Source: a virus
Reading direction: 5' to 3' (one strand)
DNA: 46,377 nt
Virus genome (UHGV): UHGV-1361494
In this document: positions 19,855-30,108 of the stretch, in pieces
How the letters are laid out: each line of letters opens with the position of its first letter
How positions within the stretch are numbered: position 1 is the first letter of the stretch
Made by a program: the position numbers and the translations under genes
The notes under the pieces: model-generated
Told to the model about the DNA's origin: nothing
Database searches by the model: none
What the model saw: only the letters and a program-made list of their open reading frames with translations

Positions 19855-20340
19855 ATGAAAATAACTGATTGGTCAGATATTTTTTATTATTGTGATGGGG
19901 CTATTTACTGGAAGATAAGAACCTCAAACAGAGTGAAAATCGGAAGCGAGGTGAAGGCGGTAGGAGGCAATGGATATAAGATTGTTGGAATCTATGGCGT
20001 CAAGTATCTTGTTCATCGCATCATCTGGGAAATGCATAATGGGAAAATTCCTGACGGAATGCAGATTGATCATATAGACCACAATAAAACAAACAATAAG
20101 ATAGATAACCTCAGGCTTGTCACTCCAAAAGAGAATAATCACAACATGAAGTTCAGGGTGACAAACAAATCAGGTGTTACTGGTGTTTCATGGGGTAAAC
20201 AACATAAAAAATGGGCCTCAAACATAAAAGTTGATGGCGTAAAGATTCATCTTGGATTGTTTTCTGACTTAAATATGGCCGCTGAAGCAAGGAGAAAGGC
20301 GGAGGTTAAGTATGATTTTCATGAGAACCATGGTAAATGA
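19855..20340 (+). CDS. free-standing HNH homing endonuclease (HNH_3 + AP2-like DNA-binding domain)
   Basis: 161 aa. Motifs YLVHRIIWEMHNGKIPDGMQIDHIDHNKTNNKIDNLRLVTPKENNHN (HNH), GVTGVSWGKQHKKWASNIKVDGVKIHLGLFSD (AP2-type), and a C-terminal YDFHENHG. It lies on the opposite strand between the tail chaperone and major tail genes. Confidence 0.85.
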   Translation: MKITDWSDIFYYCDGAIYWKIRTSNRVKIGSEVKAVGGNGYKIVGIYGVKYLVHRIIWEMHNGKIPDGMQIDHIDHNKTNNKIDNLRLVTPKENNHNMKFRVTNKSGVTGVSWGKQHKKWASNIKVDGVKIHLGLFSDLNMAAEARRKAEVKYDFHENHGK

Positions 20341-20977: not shown

Positions 20978-21733
20978 TTATCGCTCAACGGTAACAACAC
21001 ACTTGGTTGAGTCAACGTAATCAGGGCTGGTTGCCGAGTCCATCACGCGGCAGAAGTACGTACCAGCATCGTCATTGACGGCGTCCGCCTTGGTATACGT
21101 GGCAGAAGTTGCGCTGCTAATCGGCGAAGTGCCTTTATACCATTGGTAGGTATAAGGCTTGACACCGCCATCCGCAACTACCGGGCCGAGCGTCAGAGCG
21201 TCGCCAGTAGCAACGTTTTTGGTTTCGCTGATATCAGTAGTCAGCGTTAAATCTTCGATGCTGGACACATCAACGGTAGAGCCATCATAAGGCTTGAATT
21301 CAACCGATCCGGTGATAATGTCGTTGGTGCCGCCATCGTAGCTCAGAGCGGTAATGTTGCAGTAGGCAACAACAACGGTATTACCGGTGGTCTGACGCAC
21401 CCACAGCGAAGGCTGACGACGCGCTTTTACTTCGGTGACAAAGTATTTGATGAGATTATGCACGCCATACTCATCAGCCTTGTCAGCCTTACGAACTTCA
21501 AAATCACCGGAAATGGTGAGGTCTGCGGTAGTGACCAGCGTCGCGACAAAGCCATCGCCATCATCAGCCTCTGAGGTAGTGGTGCTTGGGCTGAAGTCGA
21601 CGCCTTTTGAGGTCATGGGAGCAAAAAACTTCCAATCTTCCTCTACTGGCACAGCATCCCAGCAGCCATCAGCCAGCTCGATGAGCGACTGGCGACCTGT
21701 GATGATGCCGTTATCATTTGCACAAATAGCCAT
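20978..21733 (-). CDS. major tail protein with C-terminal Ig-like (Big_2-type) domain
   Basis: 251 aa. Syntenic position upstream of chaperone/TMP. The C-terminal ~80 aa, DALTLGPVVADGGVKPYTYQWYKG...AGTYFCRV..., is a typical Ig-like decoration as in lambda gpV. Confidence 0.7.
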   Translation of the reverse strand: MAICANDNGIITGRQSLIELADGCWDAVPVEEDWKFFAPMTSKGVDFSPSTTTSEADDGDGFVATLVTTADLTISGDFEVRKADKADEYGVHNLIKYFVTEVKARRQPSLWVRQTTGNTVVVAYCNITALSYDGGTNDIITGSVEFKPYDGSTVDVSSIEDLTLTTDISETKNVATGDALTLGPVVADGGVKPYTYQWYKGTSPISSATSATYTKADAVNDDAGTYFCRVMDSATSPDYVDSTKCVVTVER

Positions 21734-22218: not shown

Positions 22219-22306
22219 GGATAGTTGGCTGAGAGGCCGAAAGCAGTCGGTTGCTAACCGATAAACCGGAAACGGTTCACAGGTTCGAATCCTGTACTAT
22301 CCGCCA
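22219..22306 (+). tRNA. tRNA-Ser (anticodon GCU), type II with long variable arm
   Basis: Acceptor ggatagt/actatcc, discriminator G, CCA. D-arm gct-gagaggccgaa-agc. Anticodon arm gtcgg-ttGCTaa-ccgat. Variable hairpin accgg-aaa-cggt. T-arm acagg-ttcgaat-cctgt. Confidence 0.85.
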
Positions 22307-22312
22307 CATTCA

Positions 22313-22389
22313 GCACCATTAGCTCATCAGGATAGAGCAATTGCCTTCTAAGCAATCGGTAACTGGTTCGAATCCAGTATGGTGCGCCA
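22313..22389 (+). tRNA. tRNA-Arg (anticodon UCU)
   Basis: Acceptor gcaccat/atggtgc + G + CCA. D-arm gctc-atcaggata-gagc. Anticodon arm attgc-ctTCTaa-gcaat (perfect). T-arm actgg-ttcgaat-ccagt. Confidence 0.85.
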
Positions 22390-22392
22390 AAT

Positions 22393-22469
22393 TCCCGTTT
22401 AGCTTAACTGGTTAAAGCACCCTACTCATAATCGGATGAGTACAGGTTCGAATCCTGTCGCGGGAACCA
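22393..22469 (+). tRNA. tRNA-like gene with Met/Ile-type CAU anticodon loop (CTCATAA) but a poorly paired anticodon stem
   Basis: Acceptor tcccgtt/cgcggga (6/7 pairs incl. G-U), discriminator A, CCA. D-arm gctt-aactggtta-aagc and T-arm acagg-ttcgaat-cctgt are canonical. The anticodon stem cccta/tcgga has only 3 pairs. An alternative perfect 6-bp hairpin actcat-aatcgg-atgagt exists. Confidence 0.5.
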
Positions 22470-22694: not shown

Positions 22695-23078
22695 TTATTC
22701 ACCAAAAACAACCCTCAGCAACAATTCATAAACCGGTCTCTGCTCCGTTGTGAGCGTCGGGCGTCCAAGCGGAGCCTGCAACTGAATCATGCCAATGCAA
22801 CTATCAACGGGATGCTCCTTGATGTATGCGATGACATCAAGCGCTTTTGCTTTTGTCTCCTCGATGTTGTACTGACCCTGCTGGCCGACAACATAGAGCG
22901 AAAAATAATAATCATTGCTGAGGTCTTTGCTTACGTTCGTACCACCATTGGATTGCAGCACCATAAACCGGTCTGTGCCAACTTCGGTATCGTTCCAGAA
23001 CTCAAGCTGAGAAGTCCACCCATCATAAAGACCGGCATCGCTAAGGTACTGGTCAACAAGCTCAAGCATATCTCTCAT
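22695..23078 (-). CDS. putative tail terminator / head-tail joining protein (gpU-like position)
   Basis: 127 aa; synteny only (between the Z-like gene and the major tail gene region). Confidence 0.35.
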   Translation of the reverse strand: MRDMLELVDQYLSDAGLYDGWTSQLEFWNDTEVGTDRFMVLQSNGGTNVSKDLSNDYYFSLYVVGQQGQYNIEETKAKALDVIAYIKEHPVDSCIGMIQLQAPLGRPTLTTEQRPVYELLLRVVFGE

Positions 23079-23491
23079 TTTAGCGTCATCTCTTTTTTGA
23101 TTACCTGATCGACAAGCTCGCGTGTGTTTTCGCCAGCCTTGAGAAGGAATTTAGGCTCGCCGCTCTTATCCCATACATTTCCCTTTCCTTTAAGTCTCCC
23201 TGTGCGCGGAGTATTCGTGCCAAGCAATTTACCTGGTGCATTATGGACATACAGGGCGTAATTAGCGGAATACCCAATCTTGCCAGTTATGCGAGTGCCA
23301 TTAACCTCAACGGTGTCATACTGGCTATTTATCAGCGTTGACGTGGCTACTGGCGTCATGGAGGCCGATTCAGTCCTGATGATGTGGTTGGCGGCTTTTA
23401 TTGCTGATACCGCCTTCTCACCAGTAATCTCACCGACTATCTGCTGGGTACGCTTAATCGCCTGCTGGATACCTCTCATTTTGGCGGCCAT
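23075..23491 (-). CDS. putative tail completion / head-tail joining protein (gpZ / HK97 gp10-like position)
   Basis: 138 aa; synteny and overlap-coupled with its neighbours. Confidence 0.35.
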   Translation of the reverse strand: MAAKMRGIQQAIKRTQQIVGEITGEKAVSAIKAANHIIRTESASMTPVATSTLINSQYDTVEVNGTRITGKIGYSANYALYVHNAPGKLLGTNTPRTGRLKGKGNVWDKSGEPKFLLKAGENTRELVDQVIKKEMTLK

Positions 23492-24615: not shown

Positions 24616-24776
24616 TAATTATTCTCCGAATGATGAACTTCCAGCATCTGTACACCTGAACCAGCGAAAGCGCCATGACGATAACGCCGATTGCTATATC
24701 CAATTTCGCCGCCTTACGATTTTCAGGACGGAACAGCGCGGGTTGAGTGTTGTTGGTTTAATTTTATCATAAAGTG

Positions 24777-24805
24777 TTGACGTAGATTGAGGGTGTCGCT
24801 ATAGT
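24777..24805 (+). promoter_or_regulatory. copy 2 of TTGACGTAGATTGA promoter (-35 TTGACG, 17 nt, -10 TATAGT)
   Basis: ttgacg 24777-24782; tatagt 24800-24805; a second partial motif gacgtagaaaca follows at 24808. Confidence 0.6.
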
Positions 24806-24845
24806 GATGACGTAGAAACAACAATAAATGTTAGAGGTGATGAGG

Positions 24846-25139
24846 ATGAATGAATTCAAAGGTACGCCGGGGCCGTGGTTTGGAGATAACAGCAGGGCAA
24901 TAGGGCCAAAATCAACAGATGACGACCAGTCTTATGGAGTGATTATTCCTGTCGGCTGGGTTGAGTTTGACCCTGAAGTTGAGGTTCAAGTTGCCAACCA
25001 ACGAATGATGGCCGCTGCGCCGGAATTGCTGGAGGCTCTGGAGATGCTTGTAGTCTTCACTACGCCAACAAAAAGGAATGCCACTGCCTTGAGCAAGGCC
25101 TATGCCGCAATCGCAAAAGCACTCGGAGAACCCCAATGA
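24846..25139 (+). CDS. hypothetical protein, first gene of the plus-strand DNA-metabolism island
   Basis: ORF 24828..25139; the best start is ATG 24846, after SD AGAGGTGA. Confidence 0.4.
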   Translation: MNEFKGTPGPWFGDNSRAIGPKSTDDDQSYGVIIPVGWVEFDPEVEVQVANQRMMAAAPELLEALEMLVVFTTPTKRNATALSKAYAAIAKALGEPQ

Positions 25140-25259
25140 TCCGCCACGAAATACGAAAAGAAGACCTGAAGGCGTGGGATAAGTTCAAAATCAAGCTGGC
25201 GTTAATCGTTATCGGATTCGCCATTGCCAGTGCAATCTGTTTATCAAAGTGAGGGAAAG

Positions 25260-26075
25260 ATGACATCTCTCGGAAAAATTTACTCAGACAAAGAAACTCG
25301 CGGCGGAATCGTGGTCAACAAAGGTTATCAGGTCCCTGTCGACCAGCTTTACCTTGAGCCGGGGTACAACATCCGCGAAGCCGATGAGCAGCACGTTGAA
25401 TACTTCGCGCAGTGTTGGGAATCAGGACAGCCAATCCCGGCGTTAACTGTTATTCCTGATGCCGACGGAAAGCGCATCAAGATTCTTGACGGCCAGCATC
25501 GTTACCTTGGAGCACTGCGTGCCATTGAGCGCGGCGTGCCAATTGCGCGAATTGAGTGCAAAGACTTCACCGGCGATGAGGCGGATAAAATCGCCTTCAT
25601 GGTGTCTTCAAGTCAGGGCAAGCAACTCGAGCCGCTTGAGCGTGCAAAGGCTTATGTGCGCCTCAAAGGGTTCGGGTGGACGAATGAAGAAATCGCCAAG
25701 AAGGTCGGGCGCTCTGTGTCTGATGTGCAAATGCACCTGTCACTTGGTGATGTACCTGATGCCATCAAGCAGCGTATCAATGCAGGCCAAATCAGCTATG
25801 CCAACGCCGTTGCGGTCGCACGTGAGCATGGCGATGATGCCGTTAACGTTATTGATGCCGCCGTTGAGGAAGCGAAAGCGCAGGGCAAAGATAAGGTGAC
25901 GGCTAAAACGCTCAAGGCCAAAAAAGTTAAGCCGATTGACCGCCTGATTCAGTTGCTGAAAGAAGCAGACCATATGGTTGTCGCTGAGGGTCATGTGGCA
26001 CAGGAGACAGAAGAATTTTTGCGCCCTCCTTCCGCTGAGTTGAGTGAAGTTCTGGCTATTCTGGAGAAGCTGTGA
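25260..26075 (+). CDS. ParB-like nuclease domain (ParB/Srx fold) protein
   Basis: ORF 25224..26075; start ATG 25260 after SD GAGGGA. N-terminal ParB box: LEPGYNIRE...KILDGQHRYLGAL (DGQHR motif); C-terminal helical DNA-binding region. Confidence 0.65.
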   Translation: MTSLGKIYSDKETRGGIVVNKGYQVPVDQLYLEPGYNIREADEQHVEYFAQCWESGQPIPALTVIPDADGKRIKILDGQHRYLGALRAIERGVPIARIECKDFTGDEADKIAFMVSSSQGKQLEPLERAKAYVRLKGFGWTNEEIAKKVGRSVSDVQMHLSLGDVPDAIKQRINAGQISYANAVAVAREHGDDAVNVIDAAVEEAKAQGKDKVTAKTLKAKKVKPIDRLIQLLKEADHMVVAEGHVAQETEEFLRPPSAELSEVLAILEKL

Positions 26076-27070
26076 TGACAGCCAGCTACTACAACGAATG
26101 GGACGCAAGTGCAGCGGCGTGGCTGCGAGAGTTAATTAACAATAAACTAATTCCTTACGGATATGTCGATGAACGATCAATCACCGAAGTCACCCCTTCA
26201 GACCTGGAAGGATTTACACAGTGTCACTTCTTTGCCGGAATCGGAGGGTGGCCCCTTGCACTCCAGTTGGCTGGAATACCAGCAAGCACTCAGCTCTGGA
26301 CAGGATCACCACCTTGCCAGCCGTTTAGCGTTGCCGGTAAGTCTCTCGGATTTGACGACGAGCGGCACCTTGCCCCAGCATTTCTCAGGCTCATCAGAGA
26401 GTGCAAGCCTCAATTGCTGTTTGGAGAGCAGGTTGCGGCAGCAATTGGAAAGCACTGGCTCGATTTTGTATTCCTTAACTTGGAAGACAAAGGCTACGCC
26501 TGCGGGTCGGCAGTATTGCCAGCGTGCAGCGTCGGTGCCCCGCACAAAAGAGACAGGCTGTTCTTTGGAGCGCGGCAACTGGGCGACACCAATAGTAAAC
26601 GACACAACCGGCAGCACGCATTGCTACAGCGGGAAGGACAGAAAGATATGCCTGAAGCTACCCGGACAGGCGAAGCTGGCCGCGTGGCCGACGCCAACGA
26701 CACGCGACCACAAGGATGGGAAGGAATGCTTGAACGTGCCTACAAGCAGCCTGCTGGGGCGGGAAGTGTGGAAGGTTGGACCAATCCGCATCACGGCTTC
26801 TGGTCAGATGCTGACTGGATCGGATGCCGGGATGGAAAGTTCAGGCCAGTTGAGGCCTGGACACAGCAGATGGTTGATGGGGTTCCCGGTGGAATGGGAC
26901 ATAGCGGCGATCCGTGCGTTGCAGCAGCCTTTGAAGAAATCGGATTCCCGCTTGGAAAAGACATCCCGGCGCGCGTTGCCCGCCTCAGAGGATACGGCAA
27001 TGCAATCGTACCCCAGTGCGCTGCCGAATTCATCGCCGCTTTCAGAGGGGCTATTGAAGACTTGTTCTGA
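26072..27070 (+). CDS. DNA (cytosine-5)-methyltransferase
   Basis: 332 aa. Motif I is FFAGIGGW (AdoMet binding), motif IV is GSPPCQPFSVAGK (catalytic PC), and a LFGEQV ENV-like motif follows. It overlaps the ParB-like stop by ATGA. Confidence 0.85.
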   Translation: MMTASYYNEWDASAAAWLRELINNKLIPYGYVDERSITEVTPSDLEGFTQCHFFAGIGGWPLALQLAGIPASTQLWTGSPPCQPFSVAGKSLGFDDERHLAPAFLRLIRECKPQLLFGEQVAAAIGKHWLDFVFLNLEDKGYACGSAVLPACSVGAPHKRDRLFFGARQLGDTNSKRHNRQHALLQREGQKDMPEATRTGEAGRVADANDTRPQGWEGMLERAYKQPAGAGSVEGWTNPHHGFWSDADWIGCRDGKFRPVEAWTQQMVDGVPGGMGHSGDPCVAAAFEEIGFPLGKDIPARVARLRGYGNAIVPQCAAEFIAAFRGAIEDLF

Positions 27071-27512
27071 GTGCGCCGAAGAAAAACCTATTTCCGAGTT
27101 TACGTTTGATAAGCGCAGGGGAAGTTACACCTCAAAATGTACTAAGTGCAGAACGAAGAAAACAAAGGAATGGCGAGATAAAAATCCGAATTACGAAAAG
27201 GAGAGGTACGGCGTTAATGAAGATAGAGATAGGTGGAGACACATAAAAAGAAAGTACGGGATTAGCAAAGAAGAATATGTCGAGATGCTGGATTCTCAAG
27301 GAGGCAGATGCGCCATATGCGGAGATGAACCTGGTGAAAGATATTCTCATCAACTGCACGTTGACCACTGTCACGCTTCAGGTAAGGTCAGGGGGTTACT
27401 GTGTCGGGGATGCAACCATATGCTTGGAGTAATCAAGGACGATGAAGTGTTGCTTTTTAAAGCAGTGGAATATCTACGCAAGTCGCAGCGGAATTCATTA
27501 AAGCATTCATGA
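27000..27512 (+). CDS. recombination endonuclease VII-like (T4 gp49 family) zinc-binding HNH-type nuclease; start uncertain (ATG 27000 or TTG 27054 after SD GAGGGG)
   Basis: It is the C-terminal part of frame-3 ORF 26163..27512. Motifs are CSEC...C(T)KCR (N-terminal zinc cluster) and CAICGDEP...HVDHCHASGKVRGLLCRGCNHMLG (EndoVII H-N-H core). The 5' 800 nt of the listed 449-aa ORF overlaps the methyltransferase and is not coding. Confidence 0.7.
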   Translation: MQSYPSALPNSSPLSEGLLKTCSECAEEKPISEFTFDKRRGSYTSKCTKCRTKKTKEWRDKNPNYEKERYGVNEDRDRWRHIKRKYGISKEEYVEMLDSQGGRCAICGDEPGERYSHQLHVDHCHASGKVRGLLCRGCNHMLGVIKDDEVLLFKAVEYLRKSQRNSLKHS

Positions 27513-27695
27513 GGTCAGTTTAATGAACCCCGAGCAATTCATAGAGAAAAACCTGCGCGAAAAACTGCCAGGCATCGACAACGCGGCTATAGAGGCCGCA
27601 ATTACCCACTACAGGAGCAACCAGAGTGAAAAGAATGGCAAGATTTTCGATGAATGCCTGAAGGTTGCAAAACAACACATGATAAAGGTGAAGTG

Positions 27696-28232
27696 ATGAA
27701 ACTAAAAATCAACAAACCACTACTTGAATCAGCATTAATATTTCAGGCGCGCAACGATGTGCGCTACTACCTGAACGGAATCTGCTTCATGCCTGATGGT
27801 CGCATTGCGTCAACTGACGGTCATCGCGCATTCATTGGCGGCAATCATGAAAATAAGTTGACGGAAAATGTGATCATCAAGATTGGTAAACCTCCAACAA
27901 AACGCTATGACTACGCCATCATTGATACCAAGTCGAAAATTGCAACGTATCATGATGAAGCTGGCGTGATGGTTGGCGCTGGCATCTGCGAAGAGATTGG
28001 CGGCAGATTCCCTGACATTGACCGCGTGATACCAAAGGAAACGAAAGCAGCAGAGGAAATTTGCTTCAATGCTGGCTATCTGGTTGACGTTGAGAAAGTG
28101 GCCAGGCTGTTTAATCCTAAATTCTGTGGCGTTAAGTTTGAATTGAATGGGAATACAAATGCCGCAGTTTGCTGTCTTAGCGCGCCATCTGGCGAAACTG
28201 CGAAGATTGTTGTTATGCCTATGCGTCTGTAG
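27696..28232 (+). CDS. hypothetical protein, possible DNA polymerase III beta (sliding clamp)-like domain
   Basis: ORF 27654..28232; start ATG 27696 overlapping the upstream small ORF stop (ATGA). The N-terminal KLKINKPLLESALIFQARNDVRYYLNGICF pattern resembles DnaN domain beta-strands. This is a weak, motif-level impression only. It is followed by a terminator at 28237-28262. Confidence 0.35.
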   Translation: MKLKINKPLLESALIFQARNDVRYYLNGICFMPDGRIASTDGHRAFIGGNHENKLTENVIIKIGKPPTKRYDYAIIDTKSKIATYHDEAGVMVGAGICEEIGGRFPDIDRVIPKETKAAEEICFNAGYLVDVEKVARLFNPKFCGVKFELNGNTNAAVCCLSAPSGETAKIVVMPMRL

Positions 28233-28313
28233 AAATCAAAAGCCCCGCAACGGGGCTTTTCTTTTATCTTACAGCCATAGAAACCCCCAATAAAAAACCC
28301 GCATTATGCGGGT

Positions 28314-28523
28314 TTAGTTTACTCTGCTTTCTTTTTCTTTTTTCTTTGTCGTCTTTTCTTGCGGGGTTGCGACTTCGAAAGACTTTTCCAGTTCTGGCAT
28401 GACGCGCAGTTTTGACATCAGATGTTCAGCAGGTTCCGTGATAACCTCGCCAAGCTGCAATTCACGAATCTTGCCTTTCTCTTTAACAAAGATTCCGCGT
28501 GCGATGACTTCGTACTTAGCCAT
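28314..28523 (-). CDS. hypothetical small protein downstream of major capsid gene
   Basis: 69-aa ORF with a Lys-rich C-terminus, flanked by hairpins (28540-28565 upstream, 28291-28318 downstream). Confidence 0.35.
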   Translation of the reverse strand: MAKYEVIARGIFVKEKGKIRELQLGEVITEPAEHLMSKLRVMPELEKSFEVATPQEKTTKKKEKESRVN

Positions 28524-28564: not shown

Positions 28565-29635
28565 TTACTGCGGAGTTTGCGTGCCGTAGCCGTTAAACAC
28601 TTTGGACTTGCCAGTGAAATCCTTACGGATTTGCAAACCGAAAGCTGACCACACCATAAAGTTAAAGTTATCGTGCGGGTTGGCGCGGGCCGCCGCATAG
28701 GTGGAAACAGGCTGAGCAACACGCGGACGGATGTACATGTCGTTGCGAACATAGCCAACGAAATGGTTGCCAGTCAGCAGGAAGTTGGTGCCAATCTTAC
28801 CGATGCGACCATTGCCGAACTGAGTGATGTACTGCTCAACGGTGCCACCTTTAAAGCCAGCAGCATCAGAATACGGACGCATGAAGCTGCGGCGCACTGC
28901 CGGGGAAACCCACAGAGTCACCTGTTCAAATACGTTCTGCGCATCGAGAATAGCCTGGAAATCCTGATTGAAGAAGGTCACGATTTCGTCTGGCGTTGCG
29001 GTTTGCAGGTCGATATTGATGCCACTGCTATCATCCAGCTTGACCTGAATGGTGTTCGGGTGGTTGGTGATACCGTAACCAGTATAAACTCCGTTCACGT
29101 TCAGAGTCTGGTCGCCAGTCAGCAGGTACTGCGCCATGTCGGAACGCAGGTTGAAGGTGACGTTAGCCTGGTCATCCAGCAGCGGGTCAAAACCTTCAGA
29201 TTGCATACCCAGCAGTTCACGCCATTCGCGGCTGTAGCCAGTTTTGAAGATTGGAATCACATCGCCAGTGTAATCGTAGCGAGTTTTATCCAAATCTTCC
29301 GGTTCCTGACCGGACAGAGTGCGGACAACCTTACCAGCACCGGAAGCAATGCGGCTGATTGCCACAGTCTTACCGATATTGATGCTTGCCGCGATACCCA
29401 TCAGGTCAGCCATCATATCCTGACCAGCTTCGTTGCGGAAAACGCGGGTGGTGACGTTGTCCACGTCGCGCCAGTAATCTTTCGTTACCAGTGCGGTGGC
29501 GTTCACACCGTAAGTTTTCGCCAGGTCAGCCTCTGCGTTGCAGAACATCTTGCGGTCGATGGTCAGATGTTTCCACTGGTCAGCCACTACTGCGGAGTTG
29601 GCTACCAAGTCTTTGGTAAAAATAATCTTTTCCAT
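28565..29635 (-). CDS. major capsid protein
   Basis: 356 aa, immediately downstream of the decoration-like and protease/scaffold genes and followed by a stem-loop. Position and size fit a major head protein. Assignment is by synteny, not by motif. Confidence 0.6.
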   Translation of the reverse strand: MEKIIFTKDLVANSAVVADQWKHLTIDRKMFCNAEADLAKTYGVNATALVTKDYWRDVDNVTTRVFRNEAGQDMMADLMGIAASINIGKTVAISRIASGAGKVVRTLSGQEPEDLDKTRYDYTGDVIPIFKTGYSREWRELLGMQSEGFDPLLDDQANVTFNLRSDMAQYLLTGDQTLNVNGVYTGYGITNHPNTIQVKLDDSSGINIDLQTATPDEIVTFFNQDFQAILDAQNVFEQVTLWVSPAVRRSFMRPYSDAAGFKGGTVEQYITQFGNGRIGKIGTNFLLTGNHFVGYVRNDMYIRPRVAQPVSTYAAARANPHDNFNFMVWSAFGLQIRKDFTGKSKVFNGYGTQTPQ

Positions 29636-30108
29636 TACATTCCTCCAGCAGGCATGGAAGCATTGCCAGCGCGACGAACTGCAACCAGCTCAGCGCCACC
29701 AGAGGCAACGGTATAAGTTTCATCGGAATAGAACAGGATGCTCTGACCCGCAACTGCAGGTTTCAGCGCACCAGCGCCATCGCTTGCCAGCGGAGTGCCT
29801 TTCTTCAGTTCGGAAGATTTAGCAACCAGTGCGTGATAGGTGACGCCAAATTCACACTGCACAGCCATGCCAGTAGCGCCAGCGGGAACATCTTCAGATA
29901 CATCACCACCACCGAGGTAGTTATGCTGGAGCACATAAGGGAAACCCTGACCACCAGCGGTAGCGTGTGCGATGATTTTGTCATCGGCAGTATCGAAGTC
30001 AACCAGTGCGCCCGGCTTCAACGCTGCCTTCATGATGCCTTCACGAATCTGCGGGTCATTTTTGCGGGCCGGGCCGCCGATGATGGTGCCATAACGGATA
30101 GTAGCCAT
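29635..30108 (-). CDS. putative head decoration protein
   Basis: 157 aa, Gly/Ala-rich, between the scaffold/protease gene and the capsid gene. Confidence 0.4.

What the first reader, a model, noticed from the sequence alone, without database searches (positions are those of the whole stretch)
24777..28262. Plus-strand DNA-modification/nuclease island (ParB-like nuclease, C5-methyltransferase, endonuclease VII, clamp-like protein) splits the head and tail structural modules
The late operon runs on the minus strand from TerS (43.97 kb) to the tail fibre (9.37 kb). Between the capsid-side genes (ending 28314) and the head-tail joining genes (starting 24615) sits a 3.4 kb opposite-strand operon with its own promoter (24777-24805) and terminator (28237-28262), facing a minus-strand terminator (28291-28318). 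Its genes are a ParB/Srx-fold nuclease domain protein, a cytosine-5 DNA methyltransferase translationally coupled to it (ATGA), a T4 endonuclease VII-like resolvase overlapping the methyltransferase 3' end, and a possible beta-clamp-like protein. Together the ParB-like nuclease and the methyltransferase look like an anti-restriction / DNA-marking module. The island breaks co-transcription of head and tail genes, so a separate late promoter must exist near 24620-24770.
Basis: partly seen in the sequence, partly recalled or inferred. Interest (0 to 1): 0.65.

Follow-up and report, generated by a model that had tools for sequence, protein, structure and literature searches.

The report
Two-frame split methyltransferase in phage island
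The opposite-strand gene island is real but is an ordinary, already-annotated feature of this Klebsiella phage group; its cytosine methyltransferase gene, however, encodes two selected proteins in two overlapping reading frames, an arrangement known from one E. coli enzyme and shown here to be widespread in phages.

Summary
The plus-strand island (24846-28232) exists as described. It sits at the same place in near-identical phages (ZX4, KpV2811, YX3973, BUCT541) and in more distant relatives, so it is neither a mis-assembly nor new.

Gene calls mostly hold:
- The cytosine-5 methyltransferase, the endonuclease VII domain and the clamp-like protein (a truncated DnaN) are supported.
- The "ParB-like nuclease" is a ParB/Spo0J-type DNA-binding protein. 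Nothing supports nuclease activity.

- Its first ~250 codons belong to a large protein family (PHROG 1008; 21,803 clusters).
- The family overlaps this methyltransferase family in every locus examined: 84/84 found through the +1 frame and 12/12 sampled through frame 0.
- It is under purifying selection exactly where the methyltransferase frame evolves neutrally.

Frame 0 carries motifs I-VIII and X. The +1 frame carries repeat modules and a motif-IX-like segment. This matches M.EcoHK31I, whose beta chain is encoded inside the alpha gene.

Whether beta and endonuclease VII are made as one fusion protein is open. No function was tested.

The parts
24777..24805 (+). Sigma-70-like promoter candidate (TTGACG-17-TATAGT), 41 nt upstream of the first island start codon
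   Evidence: Consensus scan, 10/12 matches. The number of such sites is not above shuffles, and activity is untested.
24846..25139 (+). 97-aa protein of unknown function (PHROG 1273)
   Evidence: phrog_1273, E 1.5e-21. Annotated as hypothetical in ZX4 and KpV2811. No Pfam, NCBIfam or PADLOC hit.
25136..25252 (+). 38-codon ORF with a hydrophobic stretch; its ATG overlaps the previous stop codon (ATGA)
   Evidence: Read from the sequence. Annotated as a hypothetical protein in ZX4, KpV2811, BUCT541 and VLCpiS13c. No family hit.
25260..26075 (+). ParB/Spo0J/Noc-type DNA-binding protein (N-terminal ParB domain plus HTH); the GERR box reads GQHR
   Evidence: HTH_ParB 5.6e-11 and KorB 2.6e-6. TIGR00180 2.5e-11. 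phrog_1033 3e-87. Spo0J 1vz0, E 1.6e-11, over residues 41-193.
26075..27070 (+). Alpha chain of the cytosine-5 DNA methyltransferase: motif I FAGIGG, IV PPCQ, VI GEQV, VIII KRDR, X GNAIVPQ. Residues ~166-240 form an unconstrained linker.
   Evidence: PF00145 1.8e-21. phrog_363 7.8e-80 over the full length. M.HhaI alignment of motifs IV-VIII. Motif positions. Selection analysis.
26163..27512 (+). 449-codon ORF in the +1 frame: beta chain (Mte8-like, PHROG 1008) continuing without a stop codon into an endonuclease VII domain
   Evidence: ORF listing. phrog_1008 2.5e-32 for residues 37-253. 2,899 homologues and 21,803 representative clusters. No +1-frame stop codons, against 5.6 expected from synonymous shuffles, P = 0.0004.
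26391..26921 (+). Conserved core of beta (residues 77-253): helix, LTWK..TPAGR hairpin, WATP/WPTP repeat modules and the motif-IX-like GQLRPGHSRWLMGFPVEWD
   Evidence: Alignments A1 and A2. Beta dNN/dNS 0.45, 0.70/0.20 and 0.34 in successive sub-regions. hhalign to the segment after motif VIII of single-chain ShiLan gp70, Prob 88.8%, E 2.5e-6.
26571..26795 (+). Repeat-module cassette: selected in the beta frame, neutral in the alpha frame, and swapped between this phage and BUCT541
   Evidence: Ungapped pairs: alpha dNN/dSN 0.93 [0.71-1.22], beta dNN/dNS 0.20 [0.11-0.31]. BUCT541 is 100% identical across the gene except ~26525-26797.
27054..27512 (+). Endonuclease VII module as annotated in relatives (TTG 27054). 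ATG 27000, with an AGGA/GAGGA Shine-Dalgarno-like sequence 7 nt upstream, is an alternative own start.
   Evidence: PF02945 6.2e-24. phrog_2633 5e-40. T4 endonuclease VII 1e7d, E 1e-5, with the H-x-D-H...N finger aligned; Hpy99I 9e-5. Start-codon candidates. Annotation in ZX4, KpV2811 and BUCT541.
27523..27696 (+). 57-aa protein of unknown function (PHROG 4439); part of the conserved island core
   Evidence: phrog_4439 1.2e-21. Present in ZX4, KpV2811, BUCT541 and Bas78.
27696..28232 (+). Truncated DnaN (beta sliding clamp) homologue, 178 aa: domain II plus the C-terminal VVMPMRL strand
   Evidence: phmmer against PDB DnaN, E ~1e-9, query 7-154 aligned to DnaN 136-289, with the C-terminus also aligned. 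TIGR00663 8.6e-8, below its cutoff. phrog_947 5.8e-10. The phrog_3007 label 'RusA-like' has no other support.
28238..28260 (+). Intrinsic-terminator-like hairpin (10-bp stem, 6 G-C pairs) plus T-run, closing the island
28295..28315 (-). Terminator-like hairpin for the converging minus-strand head genes; it also scores on the + strand

Best explanation
**The island.** It is a conserved accessory DNA-handling operon, transcribed against the surrounding late genes. The core shared by relatives is a PHROG-1273 protein, a ParB/Spo0J-like protein, a 57-aa protein and a truncated DnaN homologue, with a 38-codon hydrophobic ORF after the first gene in the closer relatives. Between ParB and the 57-aa gene lies a variable slot. 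In this phage the slot holds an orphan cytosine-5 methyltransferase cassette followed by an endonuclease VII module.

**The methyltransferase.** The cassette is a dual-coding gene of the M.EcoHK31I type.
- The +1 frame, starting near alpha codon 30 (ATG 26163/26169), encodes beta. Its N-terminal ~75 residues are unconstrained. Its core carries PTP-repeat modules and a motif-IX-like LxPxHSRWLMGFPxEW segment.
- Those segments correspond to the variable target-recognition region plus motif IX, which single-chain relatives carry in frame between motifs VIII and X.

**Inferred mechanism.** Alpha and beta assemble into the active enzyme. It methylates phage DNA at sites set by the swappable repeat cassette and so protects the DNA from host restriction.

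**The endonuclease VII end.** In this phage beta's frame has no stop codon before the endonuclease VII module. That module may be made as a beta-endonuclease VII fusion, as a separate 152-170-aa protein from TTG 27054 or ATG 27000, or both.

**Shown versus inferred.**
- Shown: both frames are open, conserved and under selection in a complementary mosaic.
- Inferred: that alpha and beta work together, the enzyme's activity and specificity, the anti-restriction role, the expression timing, and the fusion.
For: **Both frames are open and homologous across the family.**
- All 84 loci examined (80 viral contigs found through +1-frame patterns, plus four loci fetched earlier) carry both ORFs, always offset by +1.
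- So do 12/12 phage methyltransferases sampled through frame 0, at 58% down to 30% identity. They include phages of Paenibacillus, Rhodobacter, Xanthomonas, Pseudomonas and Vibrio.

**The +1 frame is open far beyond chance.**
- Its interior has no stop codon in 83 of 92 unique genes, against 4.2 stops per gene expected from synonymous shuffles. The +2 frame has 4-29 stops per gene, typically 10-24.

**Selection forms a complementary mosaic.**
- Alpha motifs I-IV: alpha 0.20, beta 0.87-0.91 (not significant).
- Motifs VI-VIII: alpha 0.27, beta 0.45.
- Middle region: alpha 0.93-1.05 (neutral), beta 0.20-0.70.
- Motif-IX-like region: alpha 0.43, beta 0.34.
- Motif X: alpha 0.38, beta 0.85 (not significant).
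- Values are dNN/dSN for alpha and dNN/dNS for beta.

**Other support.**
- The first beta-frame ATG after the last upstream stop clusters at alpha codons 28-38 in 75 of 92 genes.
- The beta profile matches, in frame, the segment between motifs VIII and X of the single-chain methyltransferase ShiLan gp70 (hhalign E 2.5e-6).
- Against BUCT541 the gene is 100% identical apart from a swap of the beta repeat cassette.
- Precedent: M.EcoHK31I beta lies entirely in another frame inside alpha. Alpha holds motifs I-VIII and X, beta holds motif IX, and both are needed. Beta's N-terminal ~40 residues are dispensable, and C-terminal fusions to beta remain active (PMC2836561).
- GenBank annotates the nested ORF in K1ind1 and fKuEco01 as 'Mte8-like'.
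- The island's position and core are conserved in relatives.
Against: - No expression, protein or methylation data exist for this phage or its close relatives.
- The window's beta ATGs (26163, 26169) have no Shine-Dalgarno sequence. The only start with a good one (GGAGG) is TTG 26256.
- Beta has no Pfam, NCBIfam or PDB sequence match, so 'motif IX' rests on a short motif and on its position.
- AlphaFold models of beta alone (pLDDT 59) and alpha alone (pLDDT 45) were too poor to test the domain model.
- Sequence homology to M.EcoHK31I itself could not be tested.
- Published work assigns the target-recognition domain of M.EcoHK31I to alpha, not beta, which differs from the division proposed here.
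- Alpha's segment FWSDADWIGCRDGKFRPVE is itself under selection (alpha ratio 0.28-0.43), so alpha is more than motifs I-VIII, a linker and motif X.
Confidence: 0.7

Rival explanations
1. Beta is a real, selected protein, but it does not work as a methyltransferase subunit. It could be an independent DNA-binding, regulatory or anti-defence protein overprinted on the methyltransferase gene.
For: - Beta has no hit to any curated methyltransferase model.
- Beta alone is not predicted to fold compactly.
- Its frame runs into diverse downstream enzymes, as an adaptor domain would.
Against: - Beta co-occurred with this methyltransferase family in every locus examined.
- Its repeats and motif-IX-like segment are homologous to the in-frame variable region of a single-chain methyltransferase.
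- Alpha shows no clear motif IX of its own.
- The M.EcoHK31I precedent applies.
Confidence: 0.15
2. One methyltransferase chain is made by programmed ribosomal frameshifting from alpha into the +1 frame after motif VIII. There would then be no separate beta polypeptide.
For: - Motifs I-VIII lie in frame 0, and the repeats plus the motif-IX-like segment lie in +1, in canonical order along the DNA.
- Single-chain relatives exist.
Against: - Beta residues ~77-127 overlap alpha motifs VI-VIII and are under purifying selection in the +1 frame (0.45). A frameshift product would not translate them.
- The first beta-frame ATG clusters at alpha codons 28-38.
- Motif X lies back in frame 0 and overlaps the motif-IX-like DNA, so a second shift would be needed.
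- No conserved slippery site was looked for or noticed.
Confidence: 0.07
3. The +1 ORF is a non-functional by-product of constraints on the methyltransferase sequence.
For: The N-terminal ~75 and C-terminal ~45 codons of the +1 ORF show no selection of their own.
Against: - Stop codons are absent far beyond the synonymous-shuffle expectation.
- Beta is under strong purifying selection exactly where alpha is neutral: 194 against 40.5 differences on equal numbers of sites.
- The arrangement is conserved from Proteobacteria phages to a Paenibacillus phage.
Confidence: 0.03
4. Endonuclease VII is made only as its own 152-170-aa protein. The open frame joining it to beta is incidental, because a downstream gene happens to lie in beta's frame.
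For: - Stand-alone endonuclease VII families of ~140 aa match from the annotated start (phrog_2633).
- ATG 27000 and TTG 27054 both have Shine-Dalgarno-like sequences.
- The linker (beta residues ~255-300) shows no selection in the beta frame (0.85).
- Most beta ORFs stop near alpha's stop codon.
- Relatives with the methyltransferase but no endonuclease VII exist (Bas78).
Against: - Read-through recurs with at least six partner types, all DNA enzymes: endonuclease VII, Dam in two lineages, an apparently MT-A70-like methylase (DPPW motif, read by eye), an N6/N4 methylase, and a PD-(D/E)XK nuclease.
- BUCT541, with a different beta cassette, keeps the open junction.
- Engineered C-terminal fusions to M.EcoHK31I beta are functional.
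Confidence: 0.55

Closest known systems
M.EcoHK31I (E. coli type II cytosine-5 methyltransferase made of alpha and beta polypeptides)
   Same: - A second polypeptide is encoded in another reading frame inside the methyltransferase gene.
[quoted passage not shown]
- The N-terminus of the small chain is dispensable or unconstrained (PMC2836561).
   Different: - The phage enzyme is an orphan, with no cognate restriction enzyme.
- Here beta also appears to carry the variable repeat region, whereas the literature places the target-recognition domain of M.EcoHK31I in alpha.
- Beta's ORF runs past alpha's stop codon into an endonuclease VII domain.
'Mte8-like protein' / PHROG 1008 nested ORFs (for example K1ind1 ORF28 inside ORF29; fKuEco01 KE1_033)
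   Same: - Same protein family, with the same +1 offset and the same +88-nt start position.
   Different: - In those phages the pair sits in the replication module between the polymerase and helicase genes, and beta ends inside alpha.
- The records only name the ORF. I found no published analysis of it.
Single-chain phage C5-methyltransferases such as Mycobacterium phage ShiLan gp70
   Same: - Same catalytic motifs.
- LPTP repeats, FSEWMMGWPAGW and GNGVVPQ follow motif VIII and are homologous to beta's repeats and to alpha's motif X.
   Different: - In ShiLan gp70 all of these lie in one reading frame.
- In the window the repeat and motif-IX-like segment is read in +1 as a separate ORF and overlaps motif X on the DNA.
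M.AquI (naturally split C5-methyltransferase; recalled from my own knowledge, not checked here)
   Same: It is a two-subunit C5-methyltransferase.
   Different: Its subunits are consecutive pieces of the canonical order, not a nested ORF spanning almost the whole gene.
T4 endonuclease VII (gp49), and the related His-Me restriction enzyme Hpy99I
   Same: - The PF02945 domain is present.
- H-x-D-H ... GKVRGLLC..CN aligns with T4 endonuclease VII residues 8-70.
   Different: - It carries an extra N-terminal CxxC...CxxC segment.
- It lies in frame with beta.
- Resolvase activity is untested.
DnaN beta sliding clamp
   Same: Clear sequence homology to domain II and to the C-terminal strand.
   Different: - It is 178 aa against ~366 aa and cannot form the three-domain protomer.
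- It scores below the NCBIfam cutoff.
- Its function is unknown.
ParB/Spo0J/Noc/KorB
   Same: It has the N-terminal ParB domain plus the HTH.
   Different: - The GERR box reads GQHR.
- Neither ParA nor parS was identified.
- It sits in a lytic phage's accessory operon.

Membership tests
M.EcoHK31I-type two-polypeptide C5-methyltransferase | The large chain carries motifs I-VIII and X | tested here: met
   FAGIGG, PPCQ, GEQV, KRDR and GNAIVPQ are located in frame 0. PF00145 scores above its cutoff. Motifs IV-VIII align to M.HhaI. Motif X residues are invariant in alignment A3.
M.EcoHK31I-type two-polypeptide C5-methyltransferase | The second chain is encoded in another reading frame within the large-chain gene | tested here: met
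   A +1 ORF from 26163 overlaps 908 nt of the gene. It is conserved in 84/84 and 12/12 loci and selected. In this phage the ORF also extends beyond alpha's stop codon.
M.EcoHK31I-type two-polypeptide C5-methyltransferase | The small chain supplies motif IX | tested here: inconclusive
   Beta has GQLRPGHSRWLMGFPVEWD. The beta profile hits the in-frame motif-IX position of ShiLan gp70 (i-Evalue 3e-4). No curated model recognises it.
M.EcoHK31I-type two-polypeptide C5-methyltransferase | Both chains are required for methylation | not testable with these tools
   This needs expression of alpha, beta, and alpha plus beta, with a methylation read-out.
M.EcoHK31I-type two-polypeptide C5-methyltransferase | Sequence homology to M.EcoHK31I alpha and beta | not tested
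The 1995 paper and the supplements are not held.
M.EcoHK31I-type two-polypeptide C5-methyltransferase | Part of a restriction-modification pair with a cognate endonuclease | tested here: not met
   No restriction enzyme gene lies in the island. The only nuclease is an endonuclease VII-type domain.
Cytosine-5 DNA methyltransferase (PF00145) | Curated model above the gathering score, with the catalytic PCQ cysteine and the FxGxG AdoMet motif | tested here: met
   77.3 bits against a cutoff of 22. The motifs are located.
Recombination endonuclease VII (PF02945) | Curated model above the gathering score, with the His-Me finger residues aligned to T4 gp49 | tested here: met
   84.1 bits against a cutoff of 23.6. 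Alignment to 1e7d.
ParB/Spo0J partition protein | N-terminal ParB domain plus HTH | tested here: met
   Residues 41-193 align to Spo0J 1vz0. HTH_ParB scores above its cutoff.
ParB/Spo0J partition protein | Conserved GERR arginine box | tested here: not met
   The aligned box reads GQHRY.
   Only weak sub-threshold hits were found: GmrSD_N at 0.029 and DGQHR at 0.0022. The strong hits are ParB, Noc and KorB.
DnaN beta sliding clamp | Three-domain protomer scoring above the equivalog cutoff | tested here: not met
   178 aa covering DnaN 136-289 plus the C-terminus. 31.5 bits against a cutoff of 137.65. It is a homologue, not a full clamp.

The most novel reading that the evidence does not exclude
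Beta acts as a portable target-recognition and docking module, and its in-frame C-terminal extensions are real fusions. In this phage a ~50-kDa beta-endonuclease VII protein would place a His-Me nuclease under the same sequence-recognition module that directs the methyltransferase. That would make a compact restriction-modification-like pair: phage DNA is methylated and spared, unmethylated host DNA is cut. Alternatively it would tether the resolvase to methylating complexes. In other phages the same module would recruit Dam, MT-A70-like or N6/N4 methylases, or PD-(D/E)XK nucleases.
Probability: 0.15. Interest if true: 0.85.

Novelty: new member of a known kind. Interest (0 to 1): 0.55.

Why it matters
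**The island.** It is routine. Near-identical phages carry and annotate it, so it needs no further attention as a structural oddity.

**The nested gene.** It matters for three reasons.
1. A ~0.7-0.9 kb same-strand overlap, conserved from enterobacterial phages to a Paenibacillus phage, has both frames under selection in a complementary mosaic. I am not aware of a longer or more widespread overlap of this kind in phages. It is a natural test bed for how overlapping genes evolve.
2. Most genome annotations call only one of the two frames, or label the second as an independent 'DNA methyltransferase' or 'hypothetical protein'. Thousands of phage methyltransferases may therefore be mis-described, and heterologous expression of alpha alone may fail.
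3. The repeat cassette is swapped between otherwise identical phages (this phage and BUCT541). That gives a direct handle on how these enzymes change specificity, which bears on phage host range against restriction systems.

Tried and rejected
**Structure.**
- The AlphaFold model of beta (101-sequence alignment) had mean pLDDT 59 and pTM 0.27.
- The model of alpha (87 sequences) had pLDDT 45 and pTM 0.46.
- Both were too poor, so no fold searches were run.

**Sequence searches for beta.**
- A profile search of beta against PDB sequences found nothing at E up to 10.
- Pfam and NCBIfam gave nothing for beta even at loose thresholds.
- Pfam does not align motifs IX-X even in single-chain ShiLan gp70. 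It therefore cannot settle the motif-IX assignment.

**Literature.**
- Searches for phage methyltransferase overlapping genes, overprinting or embedded frames found nothing relevant.
- 'Mte8' appears in one paper, only as an annotation label.
- The original M.EcoHK31I paper and the supplements of PMC2836561 are not held. I therefore could not test homology to M.EcoHK31I.

**Other checks.**
- PADLOC gave no defence or anti-defence hit for ParB, the clamp-like protein or the small proteins.
- A sigma-70 scan for the proposed tail-gene restart promoter found nothing on the minus strand.
- I considered a simple origin by two compensating frameshifts in a single-chain gene and rejected it. Beta's conserved N-terminal part overlaps alpha motifs VI-VIII, and the motif-IX-like DNA overlaps motif X, so the two layouts are not collinear.

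Full report
**What the window is.** The 46,377-bp window matches complete Klebsiella siphophage genomes. Over the region of the finding it is 97.7% identical to ZX4. Over the aligned parts it is 98.6-99.2% identical to KpV2811, YX3973 and BUCT541. Weaker matches reach about 250 further Salmonella, Escherichia and Klebsiella phages.

**The observation.**
- Between minus-strand head genes and minus-strand head-tail joining and tail genes lies a run of + strand ORFs from 24846 to 28232.
  - Head side: virion structural/major capsid protein 28565-29635 and head decoration protein 29635-30108.
  - Tail side: DUF7370 protein, tail completion/Neck1 23075-23491 and major tail protein 20978-21733.
- The counts of such sites do not exceed shuffles, so only their positions at the operon edges argue for them.
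- The same island, gene for gene, is annotated in ZX4, KpV2811 and BUCT541.
- VLCpiS13c has the same flanks and core but no methyltransferase or endonuclease VII.
- E. coli phage Bas78 has the methyltransferase but no endonuclease VII.
- The island is therefore not a mis-assembly. It has a conserved core: the PHROG-1273 protein, ParB-like protein, 57-aa protein and clamp-like protein, with the 38-codon ORF in the closer relatives. Between ParB and the 57-aa gene lies a variable slot.
- It is one of several opposite-strand insertions in the late region. A + strand tRNA cluster (Ser, Arg, Met) lies at 22219-22469 and a + strand ORF at 19855-20340.

**Gene identities.**
- *ParB-like protein (25260-26075).* It hits HTH_ParB, KorB and TIGR00180. 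It aligns to Spo0J, ParB, Noc and KorB structures over both the N-terminal domain and the HTH, with GQHR in place of the GERR box. Nothing supports calling it a nuclease.
- *Methyltransferase (26075-27070).* It is a bona fide C5 enzyme (PF00145, 77 bits; phrog_363 over the full length). It has motifs I (FAGIGG), IV (PPCQ), VI (GEQV), VIII (KRDR) and X (GNAIVPQ). Its ATG overlaps the ParB stop codon as TGATG.
- *Endonuclease VII domain.* It scores 84 bits on PF02945 and aligns to T4 gp49 through the His-Me finger. It also aligns weakly to the restriction enzyme Hpy99I.
- *Last gene (27696-28232).* It is a truncated DnaN homologue: phmmer E ~1e-9 against many clamp structures, covering domain II and the C-terminal VVMPMRL. 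The RefSeq/PHROG label 'RusA-like resolvase' has no other support.

**The unexpected part.**
- The ORF containing endonuclease VII does not begin near 27054. It is open from ATG 26163 to 27512, 449 codons. It lies in the +1 frame relative to the methyltransferase and overlaps about 900 nt of it.
- Its first 297 residues hit PHROG 1008 ('DNA methyltransferase', E 2.5e-32).
- They have 2,899 homologues in the large protein collection and 21,803 representative clusters in the exhaustive search.
- Most homologues are ~260-430-aa proteins with no Pfam domain.
- I call frame 0 alpha and the +1 product beta.

**Is beta real?**
- *Conservation.* In all 84 loci examined at that stage, both frames are open and homologous and beta is always at +1. 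Eighty of these were viral contigs retrieved through beta-frame patterns and four were fetched earlier. Retrieval through beta could bias this result, so I also sampled phage methyltransferases through frame 0, from 58% down to 30% identity. The sample was K1ind1, fKuEco01, KPN N137, Delraymugoa, phiXaf18, eiAU, SEN5, RcPacific, Baybae, Haboob, SJM3 and Paenibacillus phage Newport. All 12 carry the beta ORF at +1.
- *Stop codons.* The interior of the +1 frame has no stop in 83 of 92 unique genes. Synonymous-codon shuffles expect 4.2 per gene. For the window gene the figures are 0 observed against 5.6 ± 1.45, P = 0.0004. The +2 frame has 4-29 stops per gene, typically 10-24.
- *Selection.* I ran an OLGenie-style count on 32 independent sequence pairs. 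The ratios are dNN/dSN for alpha and dNN/dNS for beta.

| Region | Alpha | Beta |
|---|---|---|
| Alpha motifs I-IV | 0.20 | 0.87-0.91 (not significant) |
| Alpha motifs VI-VIII | 0.27 | 0.45 |
| Middle | 1.05 (neutral) | 0.70 |
| Beta motif-IX-like region | 0.43 | 0.34 |
| Alpha motif X | 0.38 | 0.85 (not significant) |

- *Control for alignment bias.* The middle region had been aligned on beta, so I repeated it on 8 independent ungapped pairs. There were 194 differences that change alpha but not beta, against 40.5 that change beta but not alpha, on equal numbers of sites. That gives alpha 0.93 [0.71-1.22] and beta 0.20 [0.11-0.31].
- *Start position.* The first beta-frame ATG after the last upstream stop clusters at alpha codons 28-38 in 75 of 92 genes, often behind AAGGAG.
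- Beta is therefore a selected protein. Its conserved parts sit where alpha is variable, and the reverse also holds.

**What beta is.**
- Beta's conserved core has four parts:
  - a helix;
  - a hairpin (LYSLTWKTKATPAGR);
  - a variable number of W/LPTP repeat modules;
  - GQL(N/R)PxHSRWLMGFPxEWD, which looks like C5 motif IX.
- Alpha has motifs I-VIII and X but no clear motif IX.
- Mycobacterium phage ShiLan gp70 carries, in a single frame, motifs I-VIII, then LPTP repeats, then FSEWMMGWPAGW, then GNGVVPQ. The beta profile matches those in-frame segments (hhalign Prob 88.8%, E 2.5e-6).
- Beta thus corresponds to the variable region plus motif IX of single-chain relatives.
- The published precedent is M.EcoHK31I. 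Its beta chain is encoded entirely in another frame inside alpha. Alpha holds motifs I-VIII and X, beta holds motif IX, and both are required. Beta's first ~40 residues are dispensable, and C-terminal fusions to beta still work (PMC2836561).
- GenBank annotators of K1ind1 and fKuEco01 recorded the nested ORF as 'Mte8-like'.
- I found no paper analysing it in phages. Papers on this phage group list only a 'putative C-specific methylase'.

**Specificity cassette.** The window and BUCT541 are 100% identical across the whole gene except ~26525-26797. There beta's WPTPTTRDHKDG...LLGREVW module is replaced by an unrelated module. The beta-Dam prophage proteins likewise differ mainly in these modules. 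This is the behaviour expected of a swappable target-recognition element.

**The endonuclease VII junction.**
- Beta usually stops within a few codons of alpha's stop.
- In this phage group it runs on into endonuclease VII. Elsewhere it runs on into other DNA enzymes:
  - Dam, in enterobacterial prophages and in Edwardsiella phage eiAU;
  - an apparently MT-A70-like methylase (DPPW motif, read by eye, not confirmed by a domain search);
  - an N6/N4 methylase;
  - a PD-(D/E)XK nuclease.
- The linker shows no selection in beta's frame.
- Endonuclease VII has plausible starts of its own: ATG 27000, behind an AGGA/GAGGA Shine-Dalgarno-like sequence created by alpha's RGYGNA codons, and TTG 27054.
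- I cannot decide between fusion and separate translation. I put separate translation slightly ahead.

**What failed.** Structure prediction of alpha and of beta alone gave low-confidence models, so the domain-sharing model has no structural test.

**Verdict.**
- The island itself is already annotated in sister phages.
- The one item of real interest is the dual-coding alpha/beta methyltransferase. It is a new, very large set of members of a kind known from M.EcoHK31I, with a possible new twist in the beta-enzyme read-through fusions.

Noticed in passing
window 22219-22469 (+): Three tRNA genes (Ser-GCT, Arg-TCT, Met-CAT) lie on the + strand between the major tail gene and the tail-completion genes. 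This is a second opposite-strand interruption of the minus-strand late genes.
   Followed up: no
window 19855-20340 (+): A 161-codon + strand ORF is embedded among minus-strand tail genes. It is a further moron-like insertion.
   Followed up: no
window 26525-26797 vs L103 (BUCT541): The methyltransferase genes of the two phages are 100% identical except for one cassette. It replaces beta's WPTPTTRDHKDG module with an unrelated module, which looks like a recombinational swap of specificity.
   Followed up: partly
window 26236-26258 and 26985-27002: Conserved alpha motifs create translation signals in the beta frame. Motif I (GIGG) gives GGAGG 8 nt before TTG 26256. Motif X (RGYGNA) gives an AGGA/GAGGA Shine-Dalgarno-like sequence 7 nt before ATG 27000.
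   Followed up: partly
window 24761-24769 (-): TGATAAAAT on the minus strand (an extended -10-like element with no -35) lies back-to-back with the + strand promoter. It is the only candidate I saw for restarting the tail genes. I read it by eye in the sequence printed.
   Followed up: no
L099 1481-1939 (Mycobacterium phage ShiLan, +1 frame of gp70): This 'single-chain' methyltransferase gene also has an open +1 segment over motifs IV-VIII. The segment matches beta's N-terminal conserved part (profile positions 74-187, 1e-4) and contains LPTP repeats. It may be a relic of, or an intermediate between, the nested and single-chain layouts.
   Followed up: no
window 27696-28232; RefSeq records NC_054654, NC_071157: The PHROG 3007 label 'RusA-like Holliday junction resolvase' has propagated into RefSeq for a protein that is clearly a truncated DnaN homologue.
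   Followed up: yes
L003 2058-3905 (Klebsiella phage VLCpiM12a): A phage with a different set of neighbouring structural genes (E217-type families) also carries the alpha/beta methyltransferase. There too it sits in a small + strand block wedged between minus-strand tail-terminator and head genes.
   Followed up: no
P0096, P0094, P0062 (homologues): P0096 has an HNH/zinc-ribbon-like domain inserted in beta's unconstrained N-terminus. P0094 and P0062 begin in the alpha frame and continue in the beta frame. These are either natural frame-switch variants or assembly errors.
   Followed up: no
L102 1504-2694 (Burkholderia phage vB_E264): Alpha (397 aa) and beta (394 aa) are open over virtually the same 1.19 kb. 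This is the longest overlap seen here. GenBank annotates it as a single 'putative metabolic enzyme'.
   Followed up: no
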